NCBI RefSeq assembly: GCF_964204865.1
Contig: NC_135250.1
Location: 20,398,001 to 20,462,000 of the forward strand
From: Styela clava
Taxonomy: Eukaryota
Reading direction: 5' to 3'
Length of the DNA: 64,000 nucleotides
A program made the position numbers and the translations under genes. Positions 18,599-60,722 of this stretch are shown piece by piece. Positions within the stretch are counted from its first letter, which is position 1. Each line of letters starts with the position of its first letter. The notes under the pieces were generated by a model, which did not search any database, had not been told where the DNA came from, and saw nothing but the letters and a program-made list of their open reading frames with translations.

Positions 18599-18780
18599 GA
18601 CCAAACCACCATGCTAACAAGTAGGAATATTATTTTTATTGACATAATTTCAGGATTTTTAAAATTGCCAACAAGTATTTAAATAAAGTTGAAAAAAAAA
18701 ATAATAATAATCATGTCATTTTTTATTCAGTAAAACTTTGCAATGTGTAAGTCTTGGTTCTCATCATTATATAATTATCA

Positions 18781-21700: not shown

Positions 21701-22210
21701 TCACCAATCACTGCCAAATATTATTTCAGAAAATATCAAATCTTGTAAACAATTTATATATTTGTGCATCGTTACCTATTTATGTCGTTATTAATTTCGA
21801 TCTCCATCTGTTCCAGCGCTTTGCATCTACCAAAGAAGTTGTCTTGAGCAGATAACTGTAAACTTAAAACCACTTCTGGTGTATTTGTCCAGCCCCAATT
21901 AGGGTGGCGCAATTCCATTAATCTATCTACCGTGGCATTGATAACTGAAATCACGTCCTCGCTGTTATCGTCTCCTGTAAATAATTCAAGGTATATTAAT
22001 GTAATTAAATTTGGACAGCGACAGTTTATGAAGGAAAAATTCATATATTTTTTCAATTTACATACGTCCCATATAAAAAAAAACTTAGCCAGAAGTAACT
22101 TAATAACTCAATTAAATTGTCTTACCGCATGTTTCATATGTGGATTCTTCCTCGCTTACTACAAACCCCAACAGCATACAAACAAAAAATATTTCCCTGA
22201 ACATCTTCAT
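18781..22210 (-). CDS. Transcobalamin/intrinsic factor-like cobalamin-binding protein, copy C (8 exons, intact)
   Basis: Signal MKMFREIFFVCMLLGFVVS (22126-22210). Exons at about 21776-21974, 21417-21549, 20142-20297, 19741-19969, 19493-19623, 19045-19283 and 18781-18967, all GT-AG and in phase. Motifs NIGKLALY, YYRFGLAVGALC, HSVDDAAQ, IGNKYSS, SQRLPALAGDSYL and a DUF4430-type beta domain WGEYITSMQG..HEYW..KGVSSYVPSDGEQIVF. Confidence 0.92.
20385..20588 (-). mobile_element. HINE-like element copy in intron 3 of cobalamin-binder C
   Basis: AACAGGAGAGCAATGCTCAAATATATGGACA... and terminal CGCGTCCA. Confidence 0.55.
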
Positions 22211-32097: not shown

Positions 32098-35000
32098 TCA
32101 TGTTTCAAAAACTTCTTCTCCTGTAAATTCAACCAAATCTAGGCTGTGACCAAGATTTGTCTGCCCTATTTCTTCATTTGAATTTTTAACGTTTGGTTTT
32201 GCATTTTTTCCAGGTGATGTAAAAGTAGACCCAATCGATACCGTTGTTTTTCTTGTTGTTTCTGAAGCAGTCGAGGGGGTTAATGTTCTTCCAAATCGCG
32301 TGGTAGCACTTTGTGGAGCAAAAGGTTGTGCAATTGTGGAACTGATGACATCTTCTGCAAAAACAAAGCGTTTTGAAGTAAGAAGCGTAAAATTCTACAG
32401 TATTTTACATTTTTTGTTCATTTATACTAGTTTAGTTTTTGCCAACTTAACAACATACAATTTCATCAATGTGTCATATTACCATTTTTGTTCTTTTGGA
32501 AATTACATCTTTGTGTTATGGCCGTCGTCCAGGCTTGCCTCACATCCTTTCGCCTTAAACAGAAGAAGTAGAATACAAATACTCCCTGGAAGAAAATGAA
32601 ATGTTATCAAAAGACACCATGCAATTTCTTTCTCAGAATCAACAGCAAACGAAATAAAATTGCTCATTCGTTCATTATCCTATAATGTGATATGCAAGTT
32701 AGATACTTTAATTTAGAAACGATGCATAAAAGTGAGTATCAACGGACTTCATTGCAGGTGATGAATATCGTAACAGAGTTTGTCCAAAAAATTCGCTTTA
32801 AACTAAATGTTAAATTACGAAGATTCAAAATGCTTGACAGTAGTTACATTTTTATATTAAAATTTAGCATCATTGAAGGGCAATCGTGATTTATGCTGAG
32901 TTTCAATGAAACGAAAACTAAAAAGTGCTAATAACCAATATTCACAAATATACATTTGCGCTATTGTATATATATATATTTATATATACTTATATTCTCA
33001 GATACAGGATTTCTATATGTATGGCATTGTGTTTCATCGGCTATGATTCAGTCAGTTTCTAAATATATTTACCTGTGCCGAAGTCGTTATAGCAAAAAGC
33101 CATCCAAATACTTCCTGCACTAGGGCATTGCTTGATACGACCAGTGGTATAGCAAATATCCAAGCCACACCGAGAAGCAAGGCTACAAGTATAGCACGTA
33201 GAACATGGATAATGGGCTTCTCTTCAATCGAACACTGTACCTACAAGTAGATATTTTTTTGACTTGAAGTAAAACAAGAGAGCTATGCTCAAATATATGG
33301 ACACGTAGAGTCACATAATTTTGATGACGTCATAGCGAAAAAAAGTCATAGCCCTCTGGAAAATTTTTATCTTTAACCACTGAAAATTTCAAAGCAATTG
33401 GTCCAGTATTCAAAGAGAAAGGCGATTTCTTCAAAACGTGTTAACGGAGACAAATAATAACAATAACAACAAAATTTTGAAACGATCGTTATGCCCACTA
33501 CGTGTCCAATTATATCCTAAGACACATAAAAAAAAATAATCCTACTGATTTCCGACCCCATGTTATTGCTTTAATAATGACAACAGATAATACAATGTTG
33601 AATGTTAAAAATATTCCAACAATCAGAAGAAATCCGAAATAGAGTGAATTCCCTTGCAACCAACAATAACTTTCGGCAACGTAGGTTGACCATACATCAG
33701 TTTCGCAACCTGAAAATAGTGAATGAGTTTTAAGAAAATTAAAGGAGTTAATGTGTAATCGCCCAATGTAGATTTTGATAAAATACCAGTTCCACTTTAA
33801 AAGCAAAGTGAATATTCCCATTTCAAAAACTATGTAACTCGAATAGCATAAGAGCTATCGAAAAATCAAATCAGTTATATGTGATGATTTTTGGTTACAT
33901 ATTATAGGTGGATATTTGAGCAGGTGGGTAGAAAGTTTTACCTGCGGGTACTCATCAAGGTATATTTTTACTTTATAAAATAGTTTCCGACTCATGCTCT
34001 AAGACAGGGGTGGGAAAGGTTTTTGGAAAAAAGGTCAAAATACCTAGACTGGCGGAACATGTAAATCTGACGTAATAATTTGCCTATCATTCTTCACGAA
34101 TTAGGGTGCAGAAAAGGTTTGCAGCAACAGATTATTAGAAAACATCAAAAACGATAGACTAAATTACATGGCGAGAATGCGTAAGCTATGAACAAAAAAT
34201 ACCGTGAAAAAAGAAAGGGAGAGCGTTATGAGGAATTTAACAAAACTTTTTCGGCACTAAATTGAAACTCAAGGGCTGCGCATGACCGCACACGACAACG
34301 CACGAGGCACAAGGTGGAAAGCACGCCGTCGAGTCCAGTGAGCAAGAAAACGTGAAGTTTTGTTATCACCCCATAACATAAAAGTCTGTGGGAACCTAAA
34401 CTACACTTACCCAGACTACGATCACAATATAACAAGCCTACTGCACCATACAGATTTCAATAACAACAACTATGTAGTGCATGCAGAATTGGTTAAAAGC
34501 AGAAATTTATGGTAACATCAGGCGAGCCAGATTGAATCGCTCAACGGGGCGTAGTTTGTCCATGTAAGCTCTAAGCATATTGCAGGGATATCGTATAATG
34601 AATTAGTCTTACCTGCTCCTTTATCCCATTGCATATACTGCGATAAAATCGAGAAACTTATAGTAGTGAGAACAATTGCTGCTGCGACAGCATAGACAAC
34701 AATTGCAGATTTAACCCCTTCGTCTTTCGCGTGCCTTCTATCAAACGTTTGAACAAACATCCTGCGAAATTGTGGAAAAATTTTACTTCATAATAGCAGT
34801 GGAATTCTGAGGTTCAGCCTAGTTAGTAGTAACCTATTACCAATGTTAAATTATGTCTGTCAAATTTAGTCAGCTTTGCGCAATTGATGTATGCTCAATG
34901 TACTGAAGCAGTACTGTACCGTACTTTCACACTCGGGGGCGCCAAAGTGCATTGCTGAGAACTTCGTCGAAGTAATGGATATTGACCACATCAACATCTG

Positions 35001-38000
35001 ACTGCTGAAAATCGATTGATTGAATATTTTGGTAGTAGAATGTAATACCCTAGCGGTAAGCGCACAGTATGGGTAATTAACAAAACGAAATGACGTATTA
35101 AAGTGTCTTTTTGTGAACAAAATTTAATTAAAATTGGTCGGAAAACTGTGTATTTTCAAATCTTTGGAGGGGACGTTGCAGGTCTCGTCGCCCCAGCGAG
35201 GAATGAGAGCAGAGGAAAAGTGAAAAAAGGGTAATAGACTTCTAGGAACTTCTTCCTGGTACCGTAATCGAATAGCCCATTTACTATGAATAATAGCGAT
35301 TTTACCCAATAACAACAATCACCTAAACAACAAGAGAGCAATGCTCAAATATATGGACACGTAGACGAGAGCGAATCAGTCCTTACCGGTACCTTTGACG
35401 CTACCGGTACCATCAAGAAAATTTTAGATTTTCAGTAGCAGGAATTTTGCAGAATCGAAACGTACAGCCAGTCTCCACACGGACTAAAATCAAAATCCGT
35501 GTTCCCATGGATAAAAAAAATTCGGACGAAATTTCAAATTTAATAGAATTCATACAAAATTTAAAAATAAATAAAAGTAATAGCCTTCTAGAAAAAATTC
35601 AATCTTCAACTACTGAAAATTTCAAAGCAATTGGTCCAGTAATCAAAGAGAAAAGCGACTTTTTAAAAACGTGTCAAAGAACAAGAACAACAACAGAATA
35701 TTGAAACGATCGCTGCTATGTCTACTACGTGTCCAACAAGAATAGCAACAACACGAATTCATCAAAATCATGTGTACACTAAGTGTCCAATAATGTCTGA
35801 ACAAGTATTCTCACCTGTACATTGTTATGCTCTCTACCGCCATCCATCCCCAAGCTGCTAGTAAGAAGAAATGTATAAGGGCAGATACAGCAACACAAAC
35901 TTGTCTGTTACGCGTCGCTTCTATCCCAATCAAGAATATGAAGTAAGCAATGGAAAGGCAGGCACATAAGTTAATATGAGTGAATGCAGATCGCACGCGA
36001 CGAAGTTCTCTGTATAAACGAATTGAATATTACTGATATTTTGTTTTTGTCTGGCATAAAACTTTGAATCAACTTCAAATTCTGGAATACCCTTCCAGCT
36101 AGCAATTTTCTGACAGTGTTGACTGTTGAAGTTCTTCATATACCGCACCAAACACCATGCATATAATGAATGGAGCAGAGATCTTTCAAGAAAACCCAAT
36201 CGAAAATATAAAGACGGCTTTGTACACCAATTAGGCCCGTAATGCGAAATATTTTATTAGTAAAATACTTAAAATACATAGGATGAATTGCATAACTCAC
36301 GGTACAAACAAAAATATCCATATGGTTAATGCAAGGCATACAATACAGATAATCATTCCAATAGTGCTCACAACATCCAGAGCATAATTTGGTAGCACGT
36401 GTTCACTCTGAATAGAAAAATATTTGTTAACGTGCTATTTAATGCTATATTTATATATATTTCAATACAAAAATTCAATATCTATGATCAATTTGAATAA
36501 CAAGTCAATTAAAACCAGCATGTTATAATTTAAGATGTACGAATATGATCAGCCACAAAAAATGACTCGTTTGGTTCATAGATGATTTTGCACTTTTCAA
36601 CCGTTTGTCTGAACTAGAAAATAGCGGAACTTCTCCTCAAAGGCCGTACGCTATCCAAGCGAACCAATACATTTTTTCAGTAACTCCAATAAATCGGCTG
36701 ATGGGGATTAGATCCCAAAAAACTTCAGACAAAATATACACTAATTCAATTTATTTTTATAAAACGTATTTTCTGCTCTACATTGTAACGCGTCAAGAAC
36801 TGAGCGCAGTCGTCTAAAATTGTGATATTGTATTTTAGATTGTCGAGTTTAAAACATTATTACTCAAAGTGAGATGGAAAACAAGTTTTTATATACACGG
36901 TGTTCATAAAGTCTTGTTACAATTTCATTTTTGTTATAAAATCTGTTCTCCATATGCCCGTTTATTTTAGTGATTCAGTGTTTATTTGAGCTTTTTCTTC
37001 AACAAATATAGCTATATGTGCAAAAAAACTATATCTGGTATCTATACTTGGAACCATAAACTTGGAATCAAACTTAGGTTCATTCAGATGTCTGTATACA
37101 TCCAAATTGAATCTTACCACAACAACTGCAAAACTTGTTGTATGATCACATTTGCATCTGACAACATCGGTTCTCTGACCAATAACCGGAGGTTCAACGC
37201 GACACCCGTCTGTTTTCCATAACTGCTCTGGGTGATCATAATATCTACATTCCGTTTTGAGACACTAAATAGCGAGAGTACAAAAATGAAGCTCCACCTC
37301 CATTTATAATAGTGTAAATTTATTAATTTAATATTCTCTGAATTTAGACATTGAATATTTCTGACGTTGTGAAAAATAAGTGAGGTAAGTATTTGAATCA
37401 TTATCGTATTCTTTAGCGTACCGTTCCTGAAGAAACATTCTTATTGTCCGCTATTTGCATCGAAAACTCGACTGGAACGCTGTATGTTTGTGTGCCGTCT
37501 GTAACTGTTGCTGATATAACCTAAGCATTTGAATAAATTGAAATATTTACACTGACAAGTCTGAGTAAAAATTAAACTATTTACAAACCGCAAAATTTTC
37601 GGAAATTTCATCAAGAAAGTATTTATTTTTAATAAGTGAGAAAGCCAACGGCACATTTTTGGTTTCACTGACTAAAAGCTATGATCAATTTCAATCGTCA
37701 TTATCTTCATGATACACAGAATAATAAAGTCATTTGAGTTTTTTAGCAAGAGTTGGAACCGCCGTGATTTGTTACCAAACGTTTCAAATCTACAGTTGCC
37801 AGAAATTAGGCAGTACCTTAAATGTACTTACTGAATTCACTTCGACTTTTTCATCGGTTGGAAACAACTCATCATCATCATAAGACATAAAAACAGCGCG
37901 AAATTGCTTTTGGTTTCCGTATCCTGGTGACTTTCCCGGCAACGGAGGATCAGCTAACACTTTTATATTTGATCTTCGATCATTACTTGAATGCTCCAAC

Positions 38001-41000
38001 GCAAGGTCGTCTTCATGCTCAAGTTTTACAACCTGAAGTAAGAATTTATTTTAGCTTCTAAATTATTCCGGTACTATAGTCTCATACCAAGCATAAATAG
38101 TAATGGCTTAGGAAGAAATTGTTCTTCTTGATCGCTATGGTCCCACAGCAATTTTAATCAGATACCACGTAAGCTACTGTCTAGTGCTGACTGTACTCTT
38201 CGCAGTCTTCGTTCATGAATAAACAAATCGAGTTAAGGAGATTATTGATTATCTATACATCGATAATACATATTTGACTAATTGGGTGAGAGCGACTGGT
38301 ATATATGTACTTGAATGTTTTACATCACAGATGACTTATCCAATGACGTGTTATTCATTTGCATATTATACCACTGAATTACAATTGTCAATCAGTCCAT
38401 GTAATTGATAAATCGCTGAGGTGTTCTCCTAATCCGAAAAGATTCAATTTCTGATATATTATATATATTATGAAGACCGAAAGTAAGGCCGAATGATGGA
38501 ATGATCGCCTCGCTGGCACATGTGATATATTTTCAAGTCAGCAATAAGAAATGATTTAAATTGAACGCAATCTTTTGGTTTAAATTAGCGGTTCTCAAAC
38601 TGAATGCCGCGGCACCCTAGTCTGCAGGAAAAAATTTTAACGTGTGCCCCGAAGCCTTTGTTATTTTTAAGAAATTGATTGAGTTCAGTCGGAATCAGTT
38701 ATTCCGTCCGAACACAAAGAGATAGTTCAGCCGAAAGGTGAGGCAAATATCGAAAAGATCAAATTCATCATCAGTTAATTGCATTGTTTGGACCAATATT
38801 TTCGAGCACTGTGTTTTGAAGCAGCGTGTGGTGGTTTTGGTCATTTGCTTACAACCCCTACTCTACTAAATGATCAGTTTTAAAGCTAACAAAATATTGT
38901 TTCCATTTGCATCTTTATGGCTCTACGAATTTAATTTTTTACTCTGATAGAAATCAAAAGCAAAACACGACATTTGGAAATCGAAAAGAAAATGTGAGTG
39001 CACTTGGCAATGGCGAGAGCAAGTTTAATTCTTATTTACTTCCAAAACCAAGCCCATTTAACGCATTAGTTTGCATAATAAATGACTTTTGTCTGTAATA
39101 AGTGACTCAATTATTTTACAATCGTAGTATTATCAATAAAAGGCCGGATCACATTCAAACTTAATTGGATCGAAAGCATGGCCGACGAGACTCATCACTT
39201 AGATTCTAACAAATCTAGGCAAACCCGTACTGCAATCTTCAGCATGTAGCATATTATTAAACAATTGGCGATTTCGTATTGTGATTAAGACAGATAAATC
39301 CCAATTGCAACAATATCATAATCTGTTTGCCCATCCCATTTCATGCCCATTTTAATACCTCAACTTCAATTCCATCCGCTTCAAATTTGTGTCGTGTATT
39401 ATTCGAATCCATCTCGACATGTTGTGCAAATTTCTCCAATGCTTTTTCTAGTCGAGTTCTGAATCCCGGTCGTGCTTTGTGTGTTTTATTACGTCCGTGT
39501 CGTGATAAATATCTCCTGATCTTTGCAGTGGCTGCAATGATGTCAGAAAATACTTCAGGGGGTATCTGTAAAACATGCATTTAGTCAACATTTCAGTAGT
39601 GTTTTCCAGTTCTCTGAGTTCATAACTGTGGCTATTTCTGATTTATCCCTGTGTTTTTATCGATTTAATTTTACGATATATATACAATTAGCCTGATATT
39701 AAGCAAGCATCTTAGCTAGTTTTTGTATAACGACTACAGAGTATTCGACGTGTTTATTCAACTTCCCTGGTGCACAAATTGCTTCTTATTATCAAATTAA
39801 AAACTAGTACATTATACCAGTATCCTTTTCCTTTGACACATTTTAGCTTGTACATAAATTTATTTCATAATTGAGACGATGAGATGTACAATTCCTCAAT
39901 TGCCATGATATTTACCTTTGTGCAATACGACATATGTATACACATAATAGGAAAGGGCGTCAGGATTCAAATATCCAACATATAATACTCCAAGCAAAAA
40001 TTTTGTTGTAAACATGTGGCAATTGTAGTTTGCTATTCCACAAGTCGAGTCCTGGCGTCTTCATTATTTAAAATTTGCATAGTATAATTATATTCATATA
40101 TTAAATTACTATATATGTTCATGAAGCCCTAATACAAACAAATTTCGGTTATTAAGTCAAAACCTATACATATATATTAACCAGGTTTGTTTTATTTTAA
40201 TCACTGTTTATTTAAGATCTTACTTTGATTGCAACATTGCCCAATATCAGTTGCACGAAGCATAAGTAAAGTGCTTTTACCTATGTACCTTGTATTATGT
40301 AATTTATGTCTTAGAAAATTTCACCTTTGAATTATTTTCCGACATTTCGGATAATATTTCTATGATACGTGTTATATTATTTGTCGTGAAATTACTCAGA
40401 AGTAAAAATATCGCGTGTAATTTTCTTGTCGCCTGCTTCATTGTTATATTTTTTTGTTTTGCATCAACAAATATCTGCAAATTAAAAAAAAAAGTGTGAA
40501 GATATAAAATAGTATACGCACCCCAAAAATAGAATCCCAGATTAATCTCAACCATTTATAGGTCATCACCCTTATAGTAAGTAACCTTATTAAATAACAC
40601 TTTATATAAATGATATACTTCGCTTAAAGAATCTGATAGACTTCTGTCGCATTCCATCCGAACCAAATCTGTGAACTCAACAACCGGTTTACCGCTACAG
40701 AACATTAATCCTTTTGGAATTCCTGTTGAGTTGTTTAAATATTATTAGGGTCTTGCAAAGATATATATTTGGTGATTTGTCAAACGATCCTATTCCAACT
40801 ATTGACCGAATTCAGAGCATAACTTTTTAACCGTAAACGGTGAATCAAATGACAGAAAAATTATTTAATTAAGTTATATATCGTCACGCTAATAACCGAA
40901 TTGCGTGAGTCATTTTTGACGATTTTGAGTTTTTTTTTTTATAAAATAGGTATTTATGTAATGCTGCGCACCTGTATGTTAACTCAGATTTTATTTTAAG

Positions 41001-44000
41001 AATTCCGAAACCCATAGAGATGGAGATTTAGTATGACATGCACATTTGTGCAATTGTTCGTCATAATGAATTATCATTGTTACCGCAGGACTATTGTGAC
41101 GTCACAAGGGCAAAATAACCTTGGCGAAGTATTTTCGAGTTTTTGCATCTCGGATTCTAGCTTAGCGCGTATTAATTTGAATTTTTACTACAGTATAGGA
41201 AGACATGCACTTGTGATATTCACCATCCGAGTCAAATTCACCTTGGTTGGCTTTTATATTGGGTGAATTGCTGTTTTATTCTTTATATTTAATCTTAATC
41301 TTAGTCTTATTTCGGTGGGTGTGCAGAACGTGTTATATTGATGAAATATATATTTTTAAACATAAAAAATAATGCAAATGAAACTGATTAGCTATTTTGA
41401 GGATTAGACTTTGTAGATACTGAAAATTACATTCGGTTTTGGAATGTTTCGTTTTCAGGACTGGTGCATATAATAAAGTTGCAAAATTGCGTATGTCCCC
41501 AAATCATAGACACATTTCTGCCTAAGTCACAGTGCGCCATTATGACGTCACTTAACTGCGTCATACAAATTAACTTAAATCCGACTACGATCAAAAAATT
41601 GAACCATGGCAAATTATTGACTCTCAATGGCATAACATCATCATCAGGAAGTTTTTTACGTTTTTCTCAAAACTGCTAAAAATGACTTACGCAATTCGGG
41701 TATTAGCGTGACGATACATAAGTTTCATATTTGGAGAGGTGCATGTACAAGCATCGGTGGTTTTAATAAATTGCATTAATGGCAGCCCTGGATTTGTTAA
41801 CGACAAATTCATTAAAATAGTGAGTGGGGTCATAAATCGAAAGCCGCAATTGCTTAAATATATAGAAAAGCCTGTTATATAAAACAAATGTGATGATTTC
41901 TATTTCTCCGATTCCAATGTAGGCTACTGATGGTTTGTTCTAAAGTTTATTGATTATTCTTTTTACGATTTCGATGTGATGCAAAGTTATAACTTTTGTA
42001 GTTTCGTTTCATCTACCACTTACCATTAGGGCATTTCTCCACAGAATATCCAAATCTTCTAACTTTTGTTCTTGGAAACGTAAGTTCGGACTCATTTAAA
42101 AGAACGTATTTGTCACAAAATTTTATTGTTTTTTGGGGTCGTTTTGGTACAGAAAATGTGGGCATACTCGTATTGTAGAAATCGTCTTCTGGTCGATGTA
42201 TAGCTGTTTCATTTGAGGTTTTATTTTTACCATCTGAATTCTTTTCCAGGCAACCTAAGTGGGGTAAATGTTATCGAATAGTTGATTAAAAGTATTATTA
42301 AAACTCTTTTCATTAACATTCAGATTTTAACTGAAATTTACATTACGTGCACTCAGTCACCTACCGGCGTATAATGGTCGCTCACATATTAGAGTTGTTT
42401 CTACCTCATCACACGGTGCGGACGGTTCTGCTTCTTGTCTCTTGTGCGTGACCTCTGGCCGTTTTTCAATACAATTGCTATTTCTGTCAAAAAAATGTTT
42501 ACAATTTATTCGACATGTAAATTTACTGCTGTTGTATTATTACGCAGTTCAAATCCTGCCTTTCCGTCTACTCATTCAAAAACTTGGAATATGCAATCGG
42601 CATAATGGTCTGAAAATATAAAAGAATACAGAGTGTATACATCTATTGAAATAAGTTATTAATTAGTTGGCATCATTTAATAATTTATGTATAGTATAAA
42701 TTCAAAATCGCTCACATAAAAAATTTCTCCGCAAGGTTGCTGTTTAGGGGAACTTTTCTCCCAAATGTTGCACAATGATTTGGCACATGTGGAAATTTTC
42801 TTCCATCTGTAACGTGGGTGTAAATACTACTGTTATACACCACGGAGTTGTGCACGACATCATCTGTAAAAGTTTAAAGCAATTTCTAAAAGAAAATTTT
42901 TCCTTGATCGTTTTTCATATCAAATTATGTACAGTTGTTCCATGCTATCATAATATTAGTGGTAATTTATCGGCAATTTCCTGTTAGTTTTCTCTTCGGG
43001 ATAGTAGTATTTAACGCACCAGAATATTGGAGAAAGCTGGTCTTACTAATTTTTGTAATTTTCAGTGTGAATCGGTGGGCATTAGTCAATATCGCAGAGA
43101 CGTTCTTCGAGTAATTCCGTACGTCTGTCGTCACATCCTATCAAAGCACTTTCATTCATTTGAGACCCCTATTCTGGGAGTGAATACATTTCGCTTTAAT
43201 TATTCAATATCATAAAAACAAAAAATCTTACTAGGATAATGGCAAAGATACGCCGGTAATTTACGACCACAGCTTAAACTTTCCCATCGACCATTCTTTG
43301 CTCGTGATACAAATGCGCAGAGTTCGTCGTTTTTTGTTTCCACTAGTGGGTGTCCTGTTCTCCAGTGCTAAAAAACAAGTCATTGTATAATTAAATGCAG
43401 TCAGACTGGGCTGTACATTTCAAATTGCAAACCTGGTAGTGCTGTGCTTGGTGTTCATGTTCGCAGTTCTCATCGACTTTTCCGACTGGCATGCCGTTAT
43501 CTCCTCTAATCCATAATACTTCACCATCTTTAGGTGATATCAAATATCTTTTCAGTCCTATCCAAAATCCATTGATAGCCGAACTTTCGTTGGTGCCTTG
43601 AAGTAGTTAAATACGAACTCAGCATGCGTCACATGTATATTGTTAATATAAATTTTACTATTACTAGAATAATCAAAACAACACCGAGATCAGGTGCTGG
43701 ACAATAGACATAAAACACATAATAAATGAATCTGAGTGAGCACTTGAAACTGGCATAAATTCTGTATTTATTTAACTTTCATTCACACTATATTATGGTT
43801 TTTGAAAAAAATAGAACACAAAAGATTAAAAAAACCTCTGTTCAACATGATTTTTAGTTGTTTTTAGTGAAGATGCTCTATAACTTTTATGCTTTCTTAC
43901 CGGTTTTTTGGGGAGCCATTTCAAAAAGTGATGCAACTTTGGCATTGGAAACAAAGTTTCTTCTTATAAATCTTTGAATTGTTTCTGAGTGGGAAGTTGC

Positions 44001-44122
44001 TAAAGTTCCGCCGTCCGATATGCACTTAAAACGAGCTTCCCAATATGTAGACAACCGAGTATACAAAACATACTTGCTGCCATTGGGAGCTCTTGCCGCA
44101 TGAGTTTTTGATTGCTGAGAAG
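32098..44122 (-). CDS. Adhesion GPCR, intron-rich: CTLD - degenerate CTLD - HormR-like - GAIN - GPS - 7TM
   Basis: CTLD exons 44122-43230 (YWEARFKC..GGTLA, FWIGL, LCAFV..GRWESLSC..YLC). HormR-like FC..LTFPRT..EKCPNGIPKGLMFC (42250-40620). GAIN exons at ~40480, 39565, 38030 and 37520. GPS ECRYYD..WKTDGC..CKCDHTTSFAVVV (~37118-37267). TM exons at ~36400, 36000 (HFFLLAAWGWMAVES), 34760, 33700 (YCWL), 33240 and 32585 (QGVFVFYFFCL). Tail ends at TGA 32098. The start exon is unresolved. Confidence 0.85.
33272..33509 (-). mobile_element. HINE-like element copy (intronic)
   Basis: On - strand: TTGGACACGTAG sub-terminal repeat, TTG-rich tract, inverted CTACGTGTCCA, hairpin GAGC-ATA-GCTC, then TCTTGTTTT. 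Confidence 0.7.
35327..35736 (-). mobile_element. HINE-like element copy (intronic)
   Basis: Same termini and shared core ACTGAAAATTTCAAAGCAATTGGTCCAGTA as 33272-33509. Confidence 0.7.
40881..41714. mobile_element. TA-flanked MITE with ~50-bp TIRs (copy 1, intronic)
   Basis: TCGTCACGCTAATAACCGAATTGCG... and ...CGCAATTCGGGTATTAGCGTGACGA, with TA on both sides. Homologous copies at 56553 and 60723. Confidence 0.85.
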
Positions 44123-44449
44123 CTGAAAAGTATTTTAGATTGAATAAGAAGCCCAACAAAAAAAATAGAGCCAAGAAAGAACCAAAATTATCCTGCTATA
44201 TATATTCGAGGCAAGCACTTGTCCATTGTAGACATTTACAGCAAATATTTCGTTTTGAGTATAAAAGCTACAGTATACGGTATCCTCATAACGCTCTAAC
44301 AGTGATATCATGATATCCGTTAAATGCCTATATCCATTGCGATATTTTTACACATGATACAAAAAAAAACGTCACTTGATCCCCAACCTTGGCTGCATTA
44401 AAAATGAACTCGGATTAGCCTTCACATAATCAGCATGGTATTCATAATG

Positions 44450-45974
44450 CTATTTCTCCTTACCCAGATGTCCTTTGTCACCAAAATCATACGAATTACA
44501 TAAGTCTTCCGTACATTCTTGACATGGTGCGCCATCTCCGTCCCCTCTAGATATGGGACATGTATACATGCATCTTTTATAGAGACCATCAACACGCACA
44601 GTTACGCATACCTGTGATTGAAATGGACCATATATTATGTAAATAAAACCTTGAAAACCACATAGATTGTAATAAAAATAACTGTAAAGGTCTCCGAAAA
44701 GACACTTCCAACTAAGCTATGTACAACTTGGAAGCGCTTGATCCTGCAGAAGAAAAGTGACTTTGGTTAAACATCAACAGTTTAGTAAACCACTTGAAAA
44801 CCACTTTGTGTTCGATAATAGACACACTGAATACCAATATTGATCGAATAATCTTTCACTAAGCCTTAGTTTCCTGTGTTTGGAAAAAAATTCTTTCTTT
44901 ATTATTTTTGCTGTTTAGTATATAGTTATCACAACGACATGGTTTCGCCCTAATTTTACCACAACAAATCTGTTAATTATCATCAATTCCGTGAGAAATC
45001 AGAACTGCACATGTTTCAGTATATCAGCAATTCGTAATTAATGGCTGTCTCCGATGAGTTTTAGTTTGATAGCAGTCATTAAAGTTAAGTCCACAAAAAC
45101 CGGCGATAGATTAGGCCGAGATTAGCTATCAGTACTTTTAAATTCAGGGTGATAAATATTTTGAATCAAATTGATGGTAAGGAACATGTAAAGAAATCGC
45201 GAATGAACTTTAATAATGGATTTCAAAAAGTCTGAATGGTACAGTATAAAAAGAATTTTTTTTAGGTCGGGGAAGCGTCCATCCTATGATTAGTTAAAAG
45301 ATTTGAATACATATCATAACTTGGGGCAGCACATAGCTAGTACAGCGCTGTGCTAATTTTAGTACTTTTTGTTATTTCATTTAAAAACGAACTATATGTT
45401 TTTAATGATATCCAAAATTTTGCTGATAATTTCAAAACGTTTACCTCGTTATCTTGACAACGAACTGGTTCTTTTTCGTTACATCTCCAGTTTTCATCTT
45501 CGCCTTCACAAGAGTAGCAATATAGGGCGGTTGCTGACAAAATACATATGATCGTAATCGTTCTGATACTAGTGGAAGGGACCAAAGATAGGATAAAACT
45601 GGATCAATAGTAGTTAAAATCCCATTTGAATATTTTTAGTTTGTTTCCATTTTGCGTATTTGTCCGGTCATAAACACTGAGCTACTCACCCCCAACCAAT
45701 CTGTTACCTAGAAAAGCATTTGTTCGTGGCCTATCTAATGATAAAACCGCATGCCCATCACCTCGCCCAGTGGCCCGGTTTAGCCTTCGTAGTGGTCAAC
45801 TCTTTTACTCAACCATTATCCTTATATATGAACATATTCTAAGTATTGTCTCTATCACAAAATGCACAAAATCTATCGCAACCTTTATCGCTTTATGAAT
45901 TTTAGCATAATAAAACAAAATTACATACCTCGACCGAGGAAACACAAAAGGATCGCGAATATTTTAGTCACCAT
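44450..45974 (-). CDS. Ly6/uPAR (three-finger) domain protein, 98 aa if it terminates at 44450
   Basis: Exons 45929-45974 (MVTKIFAILLCFLGR), 45445-45533 (ATALYCYSC..WRC..VRC) and 44450-44611 (VCV..KRCMYTC..PCQECTEDLCN). Ten Cys, LxCxxC start and CN end, no GPI tail. Confidence 0.8.
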
Positions 45975-46848
45975 ATCTTCTAATTGTTTGTATAATTGTA
46001 CCTTCTAAACCTAATTCTGAATCTTTGCCAAAAACTTAAAACATGACTATATGCAAAACATAATTCTTTCAAACTAATTTCAATGCTCATACCTTAATGT
46101 CGTGGAGCATCAGAATCGCGGATATATGTCTTTCCGCTCTTTGAAAACTCACACCTTTGACGTGCAAAGGTTGGATGGGATTGCTTGATCTTTCAATATT
46201 AAACAACGCACTTTCGTGTTTGATCAGGCCAAATACAATATTATGTTGGACATTCAGGATGAAATTTACTTCCTATACATTTGTTGGACGTGAAATGGAT
46301 CTATGGATCGTTTTGTCTTTTTTTATTTCTGTTCATGTTGCTATCAAAAATCGATTTGTTCATTAACTACTGAACCATTTGCTTTTGGGACACGAAATGT
46401 ACATATGGTTGTTGTGATTGTACAACGAATAGGATGAAATATAAGTCTTTAACTACACTATAGCTACAGGCCCACGTAGGTCTTAATATGGCCCCGTATG
46501 CAGACACCCAGGACGGACAACTTTTTTCATTTCCCCAAGATTGCTTGTAAGGAATGTCTCTCAAGTATCTGATGGAAAGCTTGTTGTTTACTTTGGGTTA
46601 CGTAGCGCCCATTTTAAACTCTACCTATGTTGCTATTTGAACGCAAACGAAAAAATTCATTCTATTTTTATTTGTTTCAACTTAATTAAAATGATACAAG
46701 TAACATTATTTTAACAACAAATAAACAAAATTTACCTATGGTAAAACTATTGTATCAATTGTTCAAAAATTGCACATAAAAATGAAATATATTTAATTGT
46801 ATTGACATAATTCTGCAGGTTGTACGTATTCCTTATATTATATACTCT

Positions 46849-50850: not shown

Positions 50851-52174
50851 CAGGAGTTCTCAACCTGGGGTTCGCGACCCCCCAGGGGTTCACGAGAAGG
50901 TTTCCAGGGGTACTTGAACGGCAGTTGAGTTTTCATGTGTTGCTATTTTTTATGTCCTTTACTATCAGAGGAAAATGCGTGGATTTTCCCTGATCTTGCG
51001 TTGCTGTGACTCAGCAATGTGAAATTCACAGCTTTGCAGCCAAACTGTGAAATCTCAAAAAGACAATGTGTGTTTGCTACTCGAATTGAAAACAGGGACA
51101 GCCTTCAAACTAATGTTCTGTATAAATAAAACGAATACTTTTATTTAATATCAGTTAAAATAGTGGTTCCCAACCTTTCTGTCGGACCGGTAAAATTAAA
51201 TAAAATGTACTCGCGAATCGGCAAAAAATTGAAAGGAATAACATATATTTGCGAAATGTAATGCAATGTTGGGCACTCACTGTGCTTCTAGGTAAAAAAG
51301 GCACATTTGAAAACATTTCACATGAATAAAAACAAAAAATGCGCCGACCTCAAATTGAGTGGAGTGAATGAGTGGATCAAACTCCTGAATTGGAACTTTG
51401 TCATCGTTCTTGTTAAAAAATGTCAAAATGTTGGTTAACTCATATTAATCCCTCTGCAGTTAATCAACGCCTCAAACAAAATGAATTTGCATTAATATGA
51501 CAAAGTCGTCGGTAACTTGGAATTCACAGCCCTACTGTTCATCACCTGGAAAAGATCTCTGCGCCCCATGCTATTGTTGCGCGTCTTGTTACCACATGCA
51601 GGGTTGCAGCAAGCTCGTATTTTACTGGATGTCAAGACGAAACCCTGAAATATTATACTGCTCATGACTGTTTTCTGGGTTGAACACAGAAATATTCATA
51701 ATCATAACCTTTTATTTGGATGTTCATATTAGGCAGAAAAAGCATGCAGAACAGAAAAAACACGTGTGTCGATCTTTGGGTTCTGAATATTGCGAGATTT
51801 GACGGACGCTTTTGCGATGAATCGGAACCGAAAAGTGTGGAAACTTGGCGCCAAAACGTCGTCGGCCATTAAAACCGCAAACAGCAATATGTCGGCGAAA
51901 GAGAAATTGCGTAATAAACAAATGCAACATCGTTATTTTGGGTTCGGTGAAGCGACAGAGACGGCAGAAAAACAACAAAATTTCTCTCAGACCGACAAAA
52001 AAGCTTCTGGTGCCGGTCCGCAGACCAGCGGTTGGGATCCAATGCTTTAAAACACAGTTTAAAAATTGTTAGTCAATATATTACAACTTTGATTGGTGTC
52101 TGATTACTGGGGGTTCGTGTTGACAATTTCATGACTTCGGGGGTACTTAACGGGGGAAATGTTCAGAAACCCTG
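50851..52174. mobile_element. hAT-like non-autonomous element containing a nested hAT-like element (51161-52044)
   Basis: Outer ends CAGGAGTTCTCAACCT / ATGTTCAGAAACCCTG with GGGGTAC and GGGGTTCG motifs. Inner ends TAGTGGTTCCCAACC / GGTTGGGATCCAATG flanked by AGTTAAAA and CTTTAAAA. Absent at the paralogous position ~57615. Confidence 0.7.
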
Positions 52175-52543
52175 CTATAAACCATAGAGATTTTGGGCAA
52201 GTCGAATGGCAGAACGATCCAATTATTGATTACTGTATATCCAAGCAAAATCCGATTTGCACTCTCTATTCGGGTATCGGCTATTATCCGGAACCAGAAA
52301 GCATACAAAATATACACATTTATGTGCATTGTGGAGCGCGGTTGGAGAGAGCTGTTCGACGGGCAGTGAAACGCGGGTTTCGGTATAGGTTAATTTTACA
52401 CGTACGCTATCTATCTTGCGTAAGGTTTGATCGTACATATTAGTAAGTGTTTCCGGGAGCAGAATTATGTTGTTTGTCGGTGTCCATGTTCTACGCCCAT
52501 CTATATACATTGGATGCTCAACCTGTACAAATCGGGTTATCAG

Positions 52544-54776
52544 CAGTGTTCCCGCAAAGAAAATTTCACACTGCGCAAATGTTGTTTTTACTGAGCAAGA
52601 CCCATTTAAGGCTGAGCAGAACCCTAAATTATTTGCAAACTTTGTGAAAAGTTACAATAGTAGCCTATCATATATTATCGGAATGCGAACAAACCACACG
52701 TTTAACTTCTTCTGTACTTAATGTATAGGCTTACCATACAGTCCCGCTTCTTAGCGCCTTGTCCCGCCGTCCCGACAAGTCAGCCAATAGTCCCGCTTTG
52801 GCGTTCAGCCATCCAGCATAATACACGAACATGTTCTCCTTACTGTTGTTGCTGTGTAGCGCAACGCTAGCCTACTTACTGAAGGTGAATGCGTTATTTT
52901 GTTTGTTTCGTTGTTTCCCGCCAACATTGTTAGCGAACTTATCACATGTAAAACCAATTCTAATTGGTCCTGTTCGGACATTCACGTGAATGTAACATTA
53001 ACCAACGTCTTTTTGAATGTGTTATCTACAGAAAAGCATGCTTGGGCGAATAGGTAAATTCTCAATGCTTGAAAACGGCAGACTATTCCATTATTCTTTA
53101 TACCTTTTGTTGTGCATAACCAAATCTAAATTCGGATCATTTGTATCGTTAGCGTCTTTCACGAGGACCTTTCACCGAGCATCGACTTCCTTGTTTACTT
53201 CGTGGCATTGGCCAATCAGCAAGATGCAAAAAGTGACGTAACAATGCTCCCTTTTCGCATCCGTTCAGACACTTTTCTCACTCAGACAGATTTTCAAGCG
53301 TGGTCGTAAACATTACCTTGTTTTCGCGTTTTTGAACTCTATTCGTTAGTTTTCAGTTTATTTCGGAAATTTAAAAAATAAATCAGATAATTCAATGATC
53401 ACTCTGTCTTCCTAGGAGTTTTAATTTAATTGTAGTAATAAAAAATTAGTGTGGAAATAGCTGTGATAGACTAGGCTAAAATTATTTACAGGTACTTTTA
53501 AAAAACAGATTGTTGTATGCGATCAATCATGATGATGGTGTGAAACACATACCCCAGTTTACAGGCGCCAACTCGCAAAAGCACTCTTAAAATAGCCCCG
53601 AAAATTTTGCAATGGTAAAGTACAGGAAGAATTTTTCAGGGGTCAAAGGTTGGGGAAAGGTCCATTCATTTCTATTTTTCGAACTGAACCCGATATTCAG
53701 ACGAAGAATATGCGCATGAACTTTCGATGACAAATATGGTCAATGAAGACAGCCGTCTTTAAATGTAGGCCCATGTACTAAAATCGGAAACTGTAAAGTT
53801 ACAGGATCACAGCTAAGTGGTCATGTTTTTGAAAGCGTCCCGCTTTGAAGTCAAAAAAATATTCTAATCTCTAAATATTCTAACCCTATTAATGTACAAT
53901 CTCAACATTTTTGTTGTTGAAATATCATTGCTTCCATCAAAATTAGGGCATGAAATTTTGCTTCAGCGGTCGGTATTGCGGTGAAAAAGTTCGAGTTAAT
54001 GCATCTAGTGCGTCAATGTGCTTTCATGATTTAAATGAAGTTTTAGATAGTCAGTCCCGCCCACGATTTGCCTTCTCCAAATCACTATCTATTGCCACTT
54101 CCGACATACTTTGCAGAATATCACATTCCTTGACGCGGAATAGCAATAAATTTCGCAAATTTTAGTAGTTTGTTTTTTTTAGCTTATACATAACGGTATC
54201 ACGATTTTCTTATTTTTAGCCTTGCTTCCTTAAATATACATTATACTCACACGCCAAATAAAGAACACCGGTATATTGGTTTTGGTTGAAATGCCTAACA
54301 CTCTTTTTAGTAATTTCTGGTGAATATACTTATTATATAATCATTCAGTATAAGCTCATGTGTCCCAATCTCGAGATTCAAGCAAATTTCCTGTAACAAG
54401 CAGTGGGCACATTTGATACCATTTAAAATTCCATCTTCATATGTGTTCAACTTCACTACAGACAATATAACAAGATTTGGCGGGGTTGACAACTCGAAAT
54501 CCAGAGCGCGCGATGAAAATTTCGAAATGCGACACTGCCCCGTGCTGGCATACAGAAATCAAGGTAATTGAGCGTGACAGACACATGTGTGACATCACAA
54601 TGATCAGGGGTTACCCAAAATACGCGTGAAACATAGGAGTATTTTAGATAAGCGTGAATAAAATTACATATGAAAATATGAACCGCGCTTTAAAAAGGAA
54701 GCTGCGCGAGAATGAGATTTTACTGCGCAGATGTTCTGGTGGTACTGCGCAATTGCGCAGCTTAGAGGGAACCTTG
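52544..54776. mobile_element. hAT (Tip100-like) element with near-perfect 8-bp TSD
   Basis: Ends CAGTGTTCCC / GGGAACCTTG with TGCGCA subterminal motifs. Flanks GTTATCAG (52536-52543) and GTTACCAG (54777-54784). Confidence 0.75.
52726..53888. mobile_element. hAT (Blackjack-like) element nested in the Tip100-like element
   Basis: Ends TAGGCTTACCATA / TATTCTAACCCTA, GTCCCG subterminal repeats, perfect 8-bp TSD TTAATGTA (52718-52725, 53889-53896). Confidence 0.8.
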
Positions 54777-54891
54777 GTTACCAGAAAAGCAAATAAAATA
54801 AAATGCGTGGGTTAACCTATCTGTGTAAATATCGATCCCGTCTGAAATCTATCTCTATCGTTTGTTATTGTCGAAGCGTAGAGGTCTTGGT

Positions 54892-56176
54892 ATGGCGAGT
54901 AATGATGACCCTAATACGCGAGATATACTTACAGATGTGAGAAATGCAGACAGGGCAGGAGAAAGAGAAAATCTGTTCTATTTATATGTTGCTACGCCAA
55001 AAAGACCGCCTTCTGCACTACATAAAAAAGTTATTCGGCCGTTTCTGATATCGAAAGGTTGGAGGAAAGTCAGCTATGAAAGGACAGGCTTCAGGTGAAA
55101 TCATGTTGTTTATACTTTCATATCTGAAGGATAATATACTGTAACAACTATTGAATGATAAATGATAACATGAGCATATAACAGCGACGCAGCGATGTTG
55201 ATCTGTTAATCACGCAAAAAATAGGAGATGTCAGGGATTTAGTATCAATCAAAGAGCAGCCGAGGGCTGGTTCTGTTATTCTTTCATATTCTGTATTCTA
55301 TAGTTTATGTCCGATTCGACAATTGAAATTATACTTCATTTAAAGGTCCGTTTATAGCGTTACTTTTGTTGACACAGTCGTTCGACGTCTCGATTATACA
55401 CTATATAGGTAATGAAGGAGCTTATGAATAAATAATCGCCGAATAAGCCGCACGGACCACGGCAAGTTAAATTGAAATGCGTGAAGCAAACGCAATATCG
55501 CAAAAAGTCTTTTTGACTTTGATATAAAATCTAGATCTTATGGCTTTAGTAACGTCACAAACTTTCATATTATAAACATATATTATATATATATATATAT
55601 ACATCTGTTTTGTTCACAGTAGTTTTTCAAACAACGTATCTCGTAATCCAAGCTCCGATAGCATATAAATATCCAGGCATCAATTACCAAGCCCTTTACC
55701 TAAAATTAAATCACTTTATTTGTGTTTCTGCTTGCATGATTTTGATCCTATACTGTGCGTACTTCTTCTAGCTGATTAACTGATACATCATACACTGGTA
55801 TAGTTTATTCAAGTACAATTACAAAAATGTTTTTCCTTCACACAGAGCACTTTACTTTTTGAGAAGAAGACAAGAAACCACACCAACTGTCGAACAACAC
55901 AGCAATCGTGATCAGTCAAGTTCTGAGGTAATAATCATCACTGATAGCGATGCTGAAGACGGACCAAGTAGTTCTCAAAGTCGAAGACCACGCTTGAGAA
56001 GGAATACACAAATTCCTATAGCTATAAATGCAACTCAAATAGCCACGGATCATCGCACTGAACTAAAGCAAGTCATCGAAAATTATAGGATACAACATGA
56101 TTTAACTTTCGATGTTCATATAGTTCTTTCTAGGCCTATCGACTATGAGGTAGATTTTGCAGGGCTTGCGAGTTGA
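54892..56176 (+). CDS. Uncharacterised small protein, tandem copy 1 (177 aa, 2 coding exons)
   Basis: Exons 54892-55094 and 55846-56176 joined by a phase-2 GT-AG intron (TGFR/ALYFLRRRQE). Frame and intron position are conserved in copy 2. Confidence 0.75.
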
Positions 56177-56552
56177 CCGGGTTCTTTGGAGCCGTGAAAT
56201 ATTAAAAGTCGATATTTGTTCAAAATTGGAAAATGCCACCAACATAATCAAATGGAATATTCGAAATTCTTGAGCACAATGTTGAAACCCAGAAAAAATT
56301 CATTAAAGCTCCCGTGAAAATATGAAAAACTTTCATGTATTAGCAGATAAACACTCAGACCTAACGTATCCTATACTGCAGCGTAAACTGTTTGGGTAGT
56401 TTTTCTACCTTACTATATAAAAGTTACTATATATATAATATGTATCGTTGTATATTTATAATGCTTTTAAGAATTCATAGTTTGTTAATCAGCCTTTTTC
56501 ATTTATTCTCCACAAATCTCTTCGTTCTTTACATTGTGCCGTAAACAAAATA

Positions 56553-57357
56553 TCGTCAGGCTAATAACCGAGTTTTGAGTTTTTTTTATAAATTAAGTAT
56601 TTATCTAATGCTGCGCACCTGTCTGTTAACTCTTATTTTATCTTAAGAATTTCAAAACCCATAAAGATTGAGATTTTGTATGACATGCAAATTTGTTCAA
56701 TTGTTTCGTCATCATGAATTTTCATTGTTAACGCAGAACTATTGTGACGTCACAAAGGCGAAATAACTTCGGCGAAGGATTTTCGAGTTTTTGCATCTCA
56801 GATTCTAGTTTAGCGCTTATAAATTTGAATTTATACTACAGTATAGGAAGGCGTGCACTTGTGATATTCACTGTCTGAGTCCAATTCACATTGTTCGGCT
56901 ACTATATAAGGGTACATTGCTGTTTCATTCTTTATATTTAATCTTAGTCTTTTTTCGGTGGGTGTGCAGACCGTGTTATATTGATGAAATATATATTTTT
57001 AAACATAAAAAATAATGTAATTGAAACTGATTAGCTATTTTGGGGATTAGACATTGTAGATACTGAGAATTACATTCGTGTTTGGAATGTTTAGTTTTCA
57101 GGCGTGGTGCATATAGTAAATTTGCAAAATTGCGTATGTCCCCAAGTCATAGACACATTTCTGCCTAAGTCACAGTGCGCCATTATGACGTCACTTAACT
57201 GCGTCATACAAATTAACTTAAATCCGGCTACAATCAAAAAATTGATCCATGGCAAATTATTGACACTCAATGGCATAACAATATCATTAGGAAGTTTTTT
57301 ACGTTTTTCTCAAAACTGCTAAAAAAGACTTACGCAATTCGGTTATTAGCGTGACGA
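56553..57357. mobile_element. TA-flanked MITE copy 2
   Basis: Homologous to 40881-41714. The left TIR carries a short deletion shared with copy 3. Confidence 0.85.
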
Positions 57358-57914
57358 TATACTATTCAAATTACATAACAATGTGGGAATTTTACTTTCA
57401 CAACGGTTACCCAATGATTTTGAAGATATTCTGACCATCAATGAACGAAAACAGTTATTTCGACAGATGATGTAATGTGAACATGTTTGTGTGATAAATT
57501 GTTGTACAAGAAACCTCAGTTAAATAAGAAGACTTGAGTTAAGAACTTGAAATCAACATAAGAAAGTTAAATCCGTTACTTTAGGCCCCATATTCGTATG
57601 GATTTGATTTTGATCAATCCGAATGGCAGAACGATCCAATTATTGATTACTGTATCCGAGGAAAATCCGATTCACACATCGGCCATTATCCGCAACCAGC
57701 AAGCATACAAAATATACGGATTTACTTGCATTGTAGAGCGCGATGCGGGGGAGCTGTTCGACGGGCAGTGAAACGCAAGTTTCGGTATAGGGAAATTTTA
57801 CACGTACGCTATTTATCGTGCGTAAGGTTTGATCGTGTATATTAGTGAGTGTTTCCGTGAGCATCATAGGACGACGGTAACAGAATTATATTGTTTAACG
57901 TGGGTACAAGAGAA

Positions 57915-58075
57915 GGCTGTTCGAACTTTTTCGCCACAATACGGACTGCTGAAGAGAGTGAAATGTAGATAATATATGATATGCAAATAATGTAGGACTC
58001 TGCTCAGCTTTAAAATAGTCTTGCTCAGTAAAAACAACATTTGCGCAGTGTGAAATTTTCTTACAGGGAACACAG
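57915..58075 (-). mobile_element. Inverted fragment of the Tip100-like element left end
   Basis: Reverse complement of 52544-52650 plus a match to ~53970-53995. Abuts GTTATCAA. Confidence 0.7.
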
Positions 58076-58193
58076 GTTATCAAGAAAGCAAATATAAGGT
58101 ATGAGTGAACCTTTCTGTGTAAATATCAATCTCGTCTGGAAGCCCTTCTAACGTTTGTTACTTTCGAGGCTTAGAGGTCTTATTATAGGAGGT

Positions 58194-60369: not shown

Positions 60370-60722
60370 AATATTAAAAGTCGATATTTGTTCAAAATTG
60401 GAAAATGCCACCAACATAATCATGGAATATTCGAAATTCTTGAGAACAATGTTGAAACCCAGAAAAAAATCATTAAAGCTCCCGTAAATATATGAAAAAC
60501 TTTCATGTATTAGCAGATAAACACTCAGACCTAACGTATCCTATACTGCAGCGTAAACTGTTTGGGTAGTTTTTCTACCTTACTATATAAAAGTTACTAT
60601 ATATATAATATGTACCGTTGTATATTTATAATGCTTTTAAGAATTCATAGTTTGTTAATCAGCCTTTTTCATTTATTCTCCACAAATCTTTTGGTTCTTT
60701 ACATTGTGCCGTAAACAAAATA

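What the first reader, a model, noticed from the sequence alone, without database searches (positions are those of the whole stretch)
44122..45974. Ly6/uPAR three-finger gene may be the N-terminus of the adhesion GPCR, with an alternative soluble form
Seen: the CTLD-bearing GPCR has no in-frame ATG of its own; the nearby ATGs (~44226/44235) hit TAA, and the hydrophobic FLALFFLLGF frame is closed upstream by TAG. The Ly6 exon contains a strong phase-1 donor CTG G|GTAAGG at 44464/44463. This joins in frame to the acceptor TTTTCAG|CT at 44123/44122 through a 341-nt intron, giving ...DLCNSYDFGDKGHL-A-SQQSK...CTLD. Without that splice the frame ends GKEK-TAG, giving a secreted 98-aa three-finger protein lacking a GPI signal. 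Inference: one locus could make an LU-CTLD-HormR-GAIN-7TM receptor, an architecture I do not know from characterised adhesion GPCRs, plus a soluble LU ligand or decoy.
Basis: partly seen in the sequence, partly recalled or inferred. Interest (0 to 1): 0.7.

Follow-up and report, generated by a model that had tools for sequence, protein, structure and literature searches.

The report
Sea-squirt receptor tipped with RGD finger
The apparent small three-finger gene is the spliced front end of one sea-squirt adhesion receptor, conserved in Styela, Ciona and Clavelina, whose tip keeps an RGD motif that may let it grip integrins on neighbouring cells (untested); a separate secreted form is not supported.

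Summary
The Ly6 exons are the 5' end of one 22-exon adhesion GPCR gene (45974 to 32098, minus strand). The 341-nt intron is removed in RNA-type contigs from 3 of 3 studies laid and is intact in the DNA run. My model equals the Styela clava RefSeq protein XP_039260773.2 (1117 aa), so the fusion is already annotated, though its stored Pfam annotation lists no LU domain. Layout: signal peptide, LU, CTLD, degenerate CTLD, stalk, HormR/GPR128_N-like module, GAIN, 7TM. Ciona and Clavelina proteins share it, one from each ascidian order. The soluble 98-aa form is unsupported: 9 of 21 introns read through to a stop as quickly, and the intron has no poly(A) signal. LU-bearing adhesion GPCRs are already reported in starfish, molluscs and arthropods, and this scan noted octopus ones. 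New here: a chordate case, LU at the very tip, and an RGD in loop III kept in all three genera, the loop where dendroaspin carries its integrin-binding RGD. Integrin binding is inferred (about 35%); the fold model failed.

The parts
45929..46105 (-). Exon 1: 5' UTR and signal peptide (ATG at 45974; aa 1-15; phase-1 donor)
   Evidence: Contigs X1 and X2 start at 46105 and 46109 and join 45929 to 45533; hydropathy
45445..45533 (-). Exon 2: first half of the LU domain (Cys21, 24, 33, 41)
   Evidence: Joints in X1, X2, X6; Toxin_TOLIP and UPAR_LY6 hits below cut-off on this exon
44464..44611 (-). Exon 3: second half of the LU domain (Cys47, 59, 63, 75, 78, 83-Asn)
   Evidence: Joints in X1, X2, X6; alignment with Ciona and Clavelina
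44540..44548 (-). RGD codons (aa 67-69), in loop III between Cys63 and Cys75
   Evidence: invariant in 4 of 4 rows from 3 genera; loop identity from alignment to PSCA
44123..44463 (-). 341-nt phase-1 GT-AG intron between LU and CTLD; read-through stop TAG at about 44450; no AATAAA or ATTAAA
   Evidence: Skipped in X1, X2, X6 and intact in DNA run X7
43232..44122 (-). Exons 4-6 (43901-44122, 43433-43596, 43232-43367): C-type lectin-like domain 1, aa about 108-268, no EPN or QPD motif
   Evidence: Lectin_C 30.7 bits, cut-off 22.6; exon 4-5 joint; motif scan
42365..42863 (-). Exons 7-8 (42716-42863, 42365-42483): second, shortened CTLD-like module (inferred), aa about 276-355
   Evidence: 4 invariant Cys and a weak profile match to CTLD1, probability 31%, E 5e-4; boundaries from length fit and identity with RefSeq
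40619..42254 (-). Exons 9-10 (42024-42254, 40619-40722): stalk and 4-Cys HormR/GPR128_N-like module
   Evidence: GPR128_N E 3e-4, below cut-off; no Pfam HRM hit
37118..40474 (-). Exons 11-15: GAIN domain, ending in the GPS and Stachel sequence CDHTTSFAVVV (exon 37118-37264)
   Evidence: GPS E 4.9e-8; profile match to ADGRG6 over positions 503-1051; motif
32483..36407 (-). Exons 16-21: seven transmembrane helices
   Evidence: 7tm_2 E 2.7e-25; several joints shown
32098..32354 (-). Exon 22: Ser/Thr-rich cytoplasmic tail and stop codon
   Evidence: Joint 32354/32483 in 4 of 4 runs laid

Best explanation
This is one spliced adhesion GPCR gene, conserved across three ascidian orders, whose outermost module is a Ly6/uPAR-type domain that likely serves as its ligand-binding tip, possibly by presenting a loop-III RGD to an RGD-binding integrin on a neighbouring cell. 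Shown: the splice, the 22-exon open frame, the domain order and the invariant RGD. Inferred: the CTLD pair and stalk act as a spacer or second adhesion site, and pulling on the tip would relay through GAIN to the Stachel peptide and switch on G-protein signalling. Cleavage at the GPS is uncertain because the site reads His-Thr-Thr. Odds: single fused gene about 97%; LU as binding tip about 70%; RGD-integrin binding specifically about 35%.
For: Joint 44464 to 44122 in 3 of 3 studies laid, none in the DNA run. One 3640-nt contig spans 46105 to 31943, and the exon model predicts exactly 3640 nt with one open frame. The model equals XP_039260773.2. Ciona and Clavelina proteins have signal peptide, 10-Cys LU, CTLD and the same GPS. 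LU is the best-conserved ectodomain module, 38-44% identity against 18-40% for the others, partly owing to its Cys content. RGD is one of five runs of three invariant residues in aa 19-690, and the only one with no Cys, aromatic or Leu residue. Expected RGD frequency per 65 aa is 0.7%, and keeping three given columns has a chance of about 0.9%. Dendroaspin binds integrin with an RGD in loop III (PMC12469268 passages). ADGRE5 and ADGRA2 bind integrins through RGD (PMC13197933 passages). Ascidians have an RGD-clade integrin alpha chain (PMC1145181 passages).
Against: Only three independent lineages were found. Some run of three invariant non-Cys residues arises by chance in 21% of permutations of this domain, and RGD was picked after the fact. 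The AlphaFold models failed (pLDDT 43 for LU, 37 for full length), so loop exposure is not shown. No sequence match to dendroaspin appeared in PDB searches at E up to 10. An unconserved second RGD at aa 199 shows the motif occurs by chance. The ascidian RGD-clade alpha chain is described as fast-evolving and its binding is predicted from phylogeny only. The GPS departs from His-Leu/Ile-Ser/Thr, and the Stachel ends VV rather than LM.
Confidence: 0.55

Rival explanations
1. Same fused receptor, but the LU tip binds a non-integrin partner (a receptor ectodomain, matrix or tunic protein, or the receptor's own CTLD), and the RGD is only a conserved turn.
For: A conserved tripeptide of some kind is expected in 21% of permutations. 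The nearest solved relatives by sequence are PSCA and LYPD6, which lack RGD there. Other invariant surface residues (N-E-x-x-P after Cys33) could form the real binding face.
Against: The conserved tripeptide is exactly RGD and lies near the middle of an 11-12 residue loop III in all three genera, as in a known three-finger integrin ligand.
Confidence: 0.35
2. One reading: the locus also makes a regulated secreted 98-aa three-finger protein by retaining or polyadenylating in intron 3.
For: The read-through frame ends cleanly after the domain. The donor ranks lowest of 21 in a small matrix. A newer Ciona RefSeq has a stand-alone 133-aa LU model reading on past the LU (XP_078492163.1). 51.5% of aGPCR genes have transcripts for soluble N-termini in a human RNA survey (PMC11039983 table).
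Against: No AATAAA, ATTAAA or listed variant 3' of the stop until an AATATA at 44206. 9 of 21 introns stop within 4 codons. The same Ciona annotation starts the receptor at an internal Met with no signal peptide and places CTLD1 in neither model, which looks like a split gene; the older Ciona models are fused.
Confidence: 0.1
3. Two separate genes (a Ly6 gene and a GPCR with its own start), joined only by read-through or mis-assembly.
For: One newer Ciona annotation splits the locus. A contig across two genes does not by itself prove one transcript (tool caveat).
Against: In-frame GT-AG joint in three studies, no ATG or signal peptide for the CTLD exon, and fused proteins in three ascidian orders.
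Confidence: 0.02

Closest known systems
RefSeq XP_039260773.2, Styela clava 'adhesion GPCR G7-like'; Ciona LOC100179284; Clavelina XP_076815639
   Same: The Styela record is letter for letter my model; the other two share the whole layout.
   Different: The stored Pfam annotation lists only 7tm_2, GPS and Lectin_C. No paper on this gene was found in searches.
LU-bearing adhesion GPCRs of starfish (LyAr2, XP_033635539), molluscs and arthropods (PMC9410279, PMC11595613, PMC13719153)
   Same: One LU domain in the ectodomain of a GPS/7TM receptor; the starfish ones are also named ADGRG-like.
   Different: The starfish LU is internal (aa 224-305 of 1113; aa 186-244 of 1022); here it is the first domain, followed by CTLDs. 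The 2026 survey covered only a lancelet among chordates and found no LU-7TM there. Common ancestry was not tested.
Dendroaspin/mambin (three-finger snake protein with RGD in loop III)
   Same: RGD in loop III of a three-finger cysteine frame (loop placed).
   Different: A soluble venom antagonist with measured integrin binding; here a membrane-tethered domain with no binding data and no sequence match. Any likeness would be convergent.
ADGRE5/CD97 and ADGRA2/GPR124 (adhesion GPCRs that bind integrins by RGD)
   Same: Adhesion GPCR with an RGD in the ectodomain.
   Different: Their RGD is not in an LU domain (ADGRA2: HormR domain), and they have different N-terminal modules.
Vertebrate ADGRG7/GPR128 and the ADGRG group
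   Same: GPR128_N hit below cut-off in Styela and GPR128 GAIN subdomain A above cut-off in Ciona; ADGRG6 and ADGRG2 are among the top PDB hits.
   Different: ADGRL3 scores slightly higher than ADGRG6; a 2008 Ciona survey found no GPR128-group ortholog. Orthology was not tested.

Membership tests
Adhesion GPCR | Class B2 seven-transmembrane domain | tested here: met
   7tm_2 89.5 bits, cut-off 20.6; the top 14 PDB hits are all adhesion GPCRs
Adhesion GPCR | GAIN domain with GPS motif before TM1 | tested here: met
   GPS 33.8 bits, cut-off 22.5; match to ADGRG6 over positions 503-1051
Adhesion GPCR | Long ectodomain with signal peptide and adhesion modules | tested here: met
   About 740 aa with LU and CTLD; signal peptide judged by hydropathy only
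Autoproteolysed adhesion GPCR | His-Leu/Ile-Ser/Thr cleavage tripeptide | tested here: not met
   His-Thr-Thr in all three genera against the consensus in PMC13197933; this lowers the odds of cleavage, not family membership
Adhesion GPCR | Stachel consensus TxFxxLM | tested here: inconclusive
   TSFAVVV, invariant in three genera; T and F are kept, LM is replaced
Adhesion GPCR | G-protein signalling and cleavage in cells | not testable with these tools
   Needs expression and assay
Ly6/uPAR (LU) domain | 8-10 Cys frame ending Cys-Asn in 60-90 aa | tested here: met
   10 Cys in aa 21-83 in all three genera; the terminal motif is C-x2-C-x4-CN, with the eighth Cys two places earlier than in PSCA
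Ly6/uPAR (LU) domain | Profile match to the family | tested here: met
   Isolated domain: Toxin_TOLIP 27.7 bits, cut-off 21.2; 3 of 3 members hit; UPAR_LY6 21.1, below its cut-off of 24.8; best PDB hit PSCA, E 0.039
Ly6/uPAR (LU) domain | Three-finger fold | tested here: inconclusive
   AlphaFold2 with 4 rows gave pLDDT 43; atlas neighbours are LU-clan but all score under 0.9
RGD integrin ligand | Conserved RGD on an exposed loop | tested here: inconclusive
   Conserved in 3 of 3 genera and mid-loop III by alignment; exposure not shown
RGD integrin ligand | Cation-dependent, RGD-dependent integrin binding | not testable with these tools
   No full-length integrin chains were available to the complex tool; needs a bench test
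Sugar-binding C-type lectin | EPN or QPD with WND calcium site | tested here: not met
   No EPN or QPD in any of 3; one WND string in Clavelina only
ADGRG7 ortholog | Groups with vertebrate ADGRG7 in a 7TM tree | not tested
   No vertebrate sequences were in hand; the 8-row tree held only ascidian rows and left the three LU receptors unresolved

The most novel reading that the evidence does not exclude
Ascidians evolved an adhesion GPCR tipped by a dendroaspin-like RGD three-finger domain: a membrane-tethered integrin ligand, kept since the three orders split, that couples integrin grip on one cell to G-protein signalling in the other.
Probability: 0.3. Interest if true: 0.72.

Novelty: new variant of a known kind. 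Interest (0 to 1): 0.45.

Why it matters
Most adhesion GPCRs of invertebrate chordates have no known ligand. A conserved RGD on a three-finger tip names a specific candidate partner (the single ascidian RGD-clade integrin) and a one-residue control (RGE), in Ciona, where the gene can be knocked out. It also extends LU-bearing GPCRs to chordates. If the RGD is incidental, the finding is a correct but already annotated gene model with an unrecognised domain.

Tried and rejected
Structure prediction: the full-length single-sequence model (pLDDT 37) and the LU model (pLDDT 43) were unusable, so no fold search was run. No complex prediction was run, because full-length ascidian integrin chains were not in hand.

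Soluble form in RNA: no contig of X1, X2 or X6 covered 44143-44360, and X3's bin depths fit exons only (my arithmetic). Contigs drop rare variants, so this is not evidence of absence. 4 of 6 RNA-guess holders were laid; no listed holder is on record as RNA. X7 may be the sample the window came from, so it is a control, not independent support.

More orthologs: an HMMER scan of 1.84 billion representatives with the LU profile gave 4 hits, all from the same three genera by sequence; word searches added none. P0012 is an unnamed 120-aa call on a 1281-nt contig that matches the Clavelina LU and then diverges; I treated it as a gene-calling artefact. The exon-3 protein found only itself in the own genome. 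Six other LU-like exons exist there; their neighbours were not examined.

The FLALFFLLGF stretch as a private signal peptide was rejected: it lies in the spliced-out intron and has no start codon. A second RGD at aa 199 is not in register in Clavelina and is absent in Ciona. Supplements of PMC13719153 could not be read; they list LU proteins and may hold an LU-CTLD-7TM case from another phylum.

Full report
Observation. The three Ly6 exons are 45974-45929, 45533-45445 and 44611-44464. A phase-1 GT-AG intron of 341 nt joins them in frame to the CTLD exon at 44122. The CTLD exon has no start of its own. Reading through the donor gives a 98-aa ORF ending GKEK.

The splice is real. Six runs guessed to be RNA hold part of the region; I laid four. 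X1, X2 and X6, from three studies, each carry the joints 45929/45533, 45445/44611 and 44464/44122. The DNA run X7 is continuous there and has no indel near 44200. One X1 contig of 3640 nt runs from 46105 to 31943, through the transmembrane exons. I built a 22-exon model; it has one open frame of 1117 aa and predicts a contig of exactly 3640 nt. Some middle boundaries (exons 6-8, 10, 11) rest on this length fit, because the joint table was cut. A search with exon 3 returned one protein, Styela clava XP_039260773.2, identical to the model. The fusion is therefore already in RefSeq; the LU scores below cut-off in the full-length scan (19.7 bits against 21.2) and its stored annotation omits it.

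Anatomy. Signal peptide (aa 1 to about 18, by hydropathy), LU (19-85), CTLD (about 108-268, Lectin_C over cut-off, no EPN or QPD), a shortened CTLD-like module (about 276-355, weak support), a stalk, a four-Cys module that hits GPR128_N below cut-off and that I read as HormR-like from recalled pattern, GAIN with GPS, seven helices and a Ser/Thr tail. LU, CTLD1 and the second module each begin and end at phase-1 introns, which fits assembly by exon shuffling (inference). The isolated LU passes the Toxin_TOLIP cut-off and its best PDB match is PSCA. Its fold could not be modelled.

Conservation. A search with the GPS-7TM region gave 8 proteins among 4439 candidates. The two closest to the query, from Ciona (53%) and Clavelina (50%), begin with the same signal peptide, 10-Cys LU and CTLD. 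The three genera represent Stolidobranchia, Phlebobranchia and Aplousobranchia. The other five hits have EGF-SEA or Sushi ectodomains and no LU hit. A small tree left the three LU receptors unresolved, so orthology rests on score and shared layout.

Soluble form. Nine of the gene's 21 introns reach a stop within four codons when read through, so GKEK-stop is ordinary. The intron has no AATAAA or ATTAAA. In favour: the donor ranks last of 21 in a small matrix; a newer Ciona annotation holds a 133-aa LU-only model; and soluble N-terminal transcripts are listed for 51.5% of aGPCR genes in a human RNA survey (PMC11039983, passages and table). That Ciona annotation also starts the receptor at an internal Met and drops CTLD1 from both models, which points to a split gene. 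I put a regulated soluble form at about 10%.

The RGD. The loop between the seventh and eighth Cys carries RGD in all three genera and in both Ciona versions (window 44548-44540). Alignments to PSCA and to a long neurotoxin chain place this as loop III. RGD lies at positions 4-6 or 5-7 of an 11-12 residue loop. Dendroaspin binds integrin through an RGD in loop III (PMC12469268, passages). ADGRE5 and ADGRA2 engage integrins by RGD (PMC13197933, passages; PMC6365523, abstract). Ciona and Halocynthia each have an RGD-clade alpha chain (PMC1145181, passages). A starfish LU protein pulled down an integrin alpha-8-like protein (PMC11595613, passages). Against: only three lineages; some invariant tripeptide is expected in 21% of permutations, though a given three columns survive at about 0.9%; the motif was chosen after the fact; exposure and binding are untested.

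Mechanism. Most likely the LU is the distal binding module, the CTLDs and stalk hold it away from the membrane, and force or binding is relayed through GAIN to the Stachel. The integrin is my leading named partner at about 35%. The GPS reads His-Thr-Thr rather than His-Leu/Ile-Ser/Thr, so the receptor may signal uncleaved.

What is known. LU domains in adhesion GPCRs were noted in starfish (PMC9410279 and PMC11595613, passages and one supplement table) and in molluscs and arthropods (PMC13719153, parts 1-3 of 4 read; supplements unreadable). The starfish LU is internal. That survey did not include tunicates. A 2008 Ciona GPCR survey has no mention of uPAR or RGD and reports GPS-only ectodomains for 21 of 24 unclassified receptors (PMC2396169, passages). 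Searches (listings only for 70 and 71) showed no paper on this gene. This scan earlier noted two octopus receptors with an internal LU; I did not test them.

Verdict. A real, expressed, conserved gene; a new variant of a known kind. The conserved loop-III RGD is the part worth following. Interest 0.45.

Noticed in passing
window 25707-28473, minus strand: A second adhesion GPCR-like gene lies directly downstream: a short signal-peptide exon near 28470, a small exon near 27930-27866, and GAIN, GPS and 7TM in one 680-aa open frame (7tm_2 E 1.6e-17, GPS E 1.4e-7). It seems to have almost no ectodomain beyond GAIN, has the GPS His-Thr-Thr too, and is a long branch in the tree. An intron-poor body suggests retroposition (inference).
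   Followed up: partly
window about 11600-22200, minus strand: At least two tandem transcobalamin or intrinsic-factor-like genes (Cobalamin_bind hits on four stretches, one over cut-off; DUF4430 over cut-off).
   Followed up: partly
window 4012-4365, plus strand: Exon of a heparanase-like gene (Glyco_hydro_79n over cut-off).
   Followed up: no
window 45975-46105, minus strand: The 5' UTR holds three upstream ATGs (46090, 46061, 46044); the first opens a frame of about 36 codons that stops just before the main ATG. No loose end suggesting a spliced leader was listed there.
   Followed up: no
window about 52100-60400: Two pairs of related open frames (52135-52440 with 57585-57842; 55784-56173 with 59917-60366) with no Pfam hit; possibly a tandem duplication or a mobile element.
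   Followed up: no
window 62634-63056, minus strand: GIY-YIG endonuclease-like frame (E 5e-4, below cut-off), typical of a Penelope-like retroelement fragment (recalled).
   Followed up: no
window 33270-33510, 35330-35690 and 41000-41650: Intronic dispersed repeats with very high contig depth in the RNA-guess runs.
   Followed up: no
G000 contigs C1, C2, C9, C13, C19: Six other LU-like exons over the Toxin_TOLIP cut-off elsewhere in the genome; their neighbouring genes were not checked.
   Followed up: no
window 43901-43904: X6 and the older RefSeq version differ at the exon 4-5 junction, suggesting an allele or a shifted splice site inside CTLD1.
   Followed up: no
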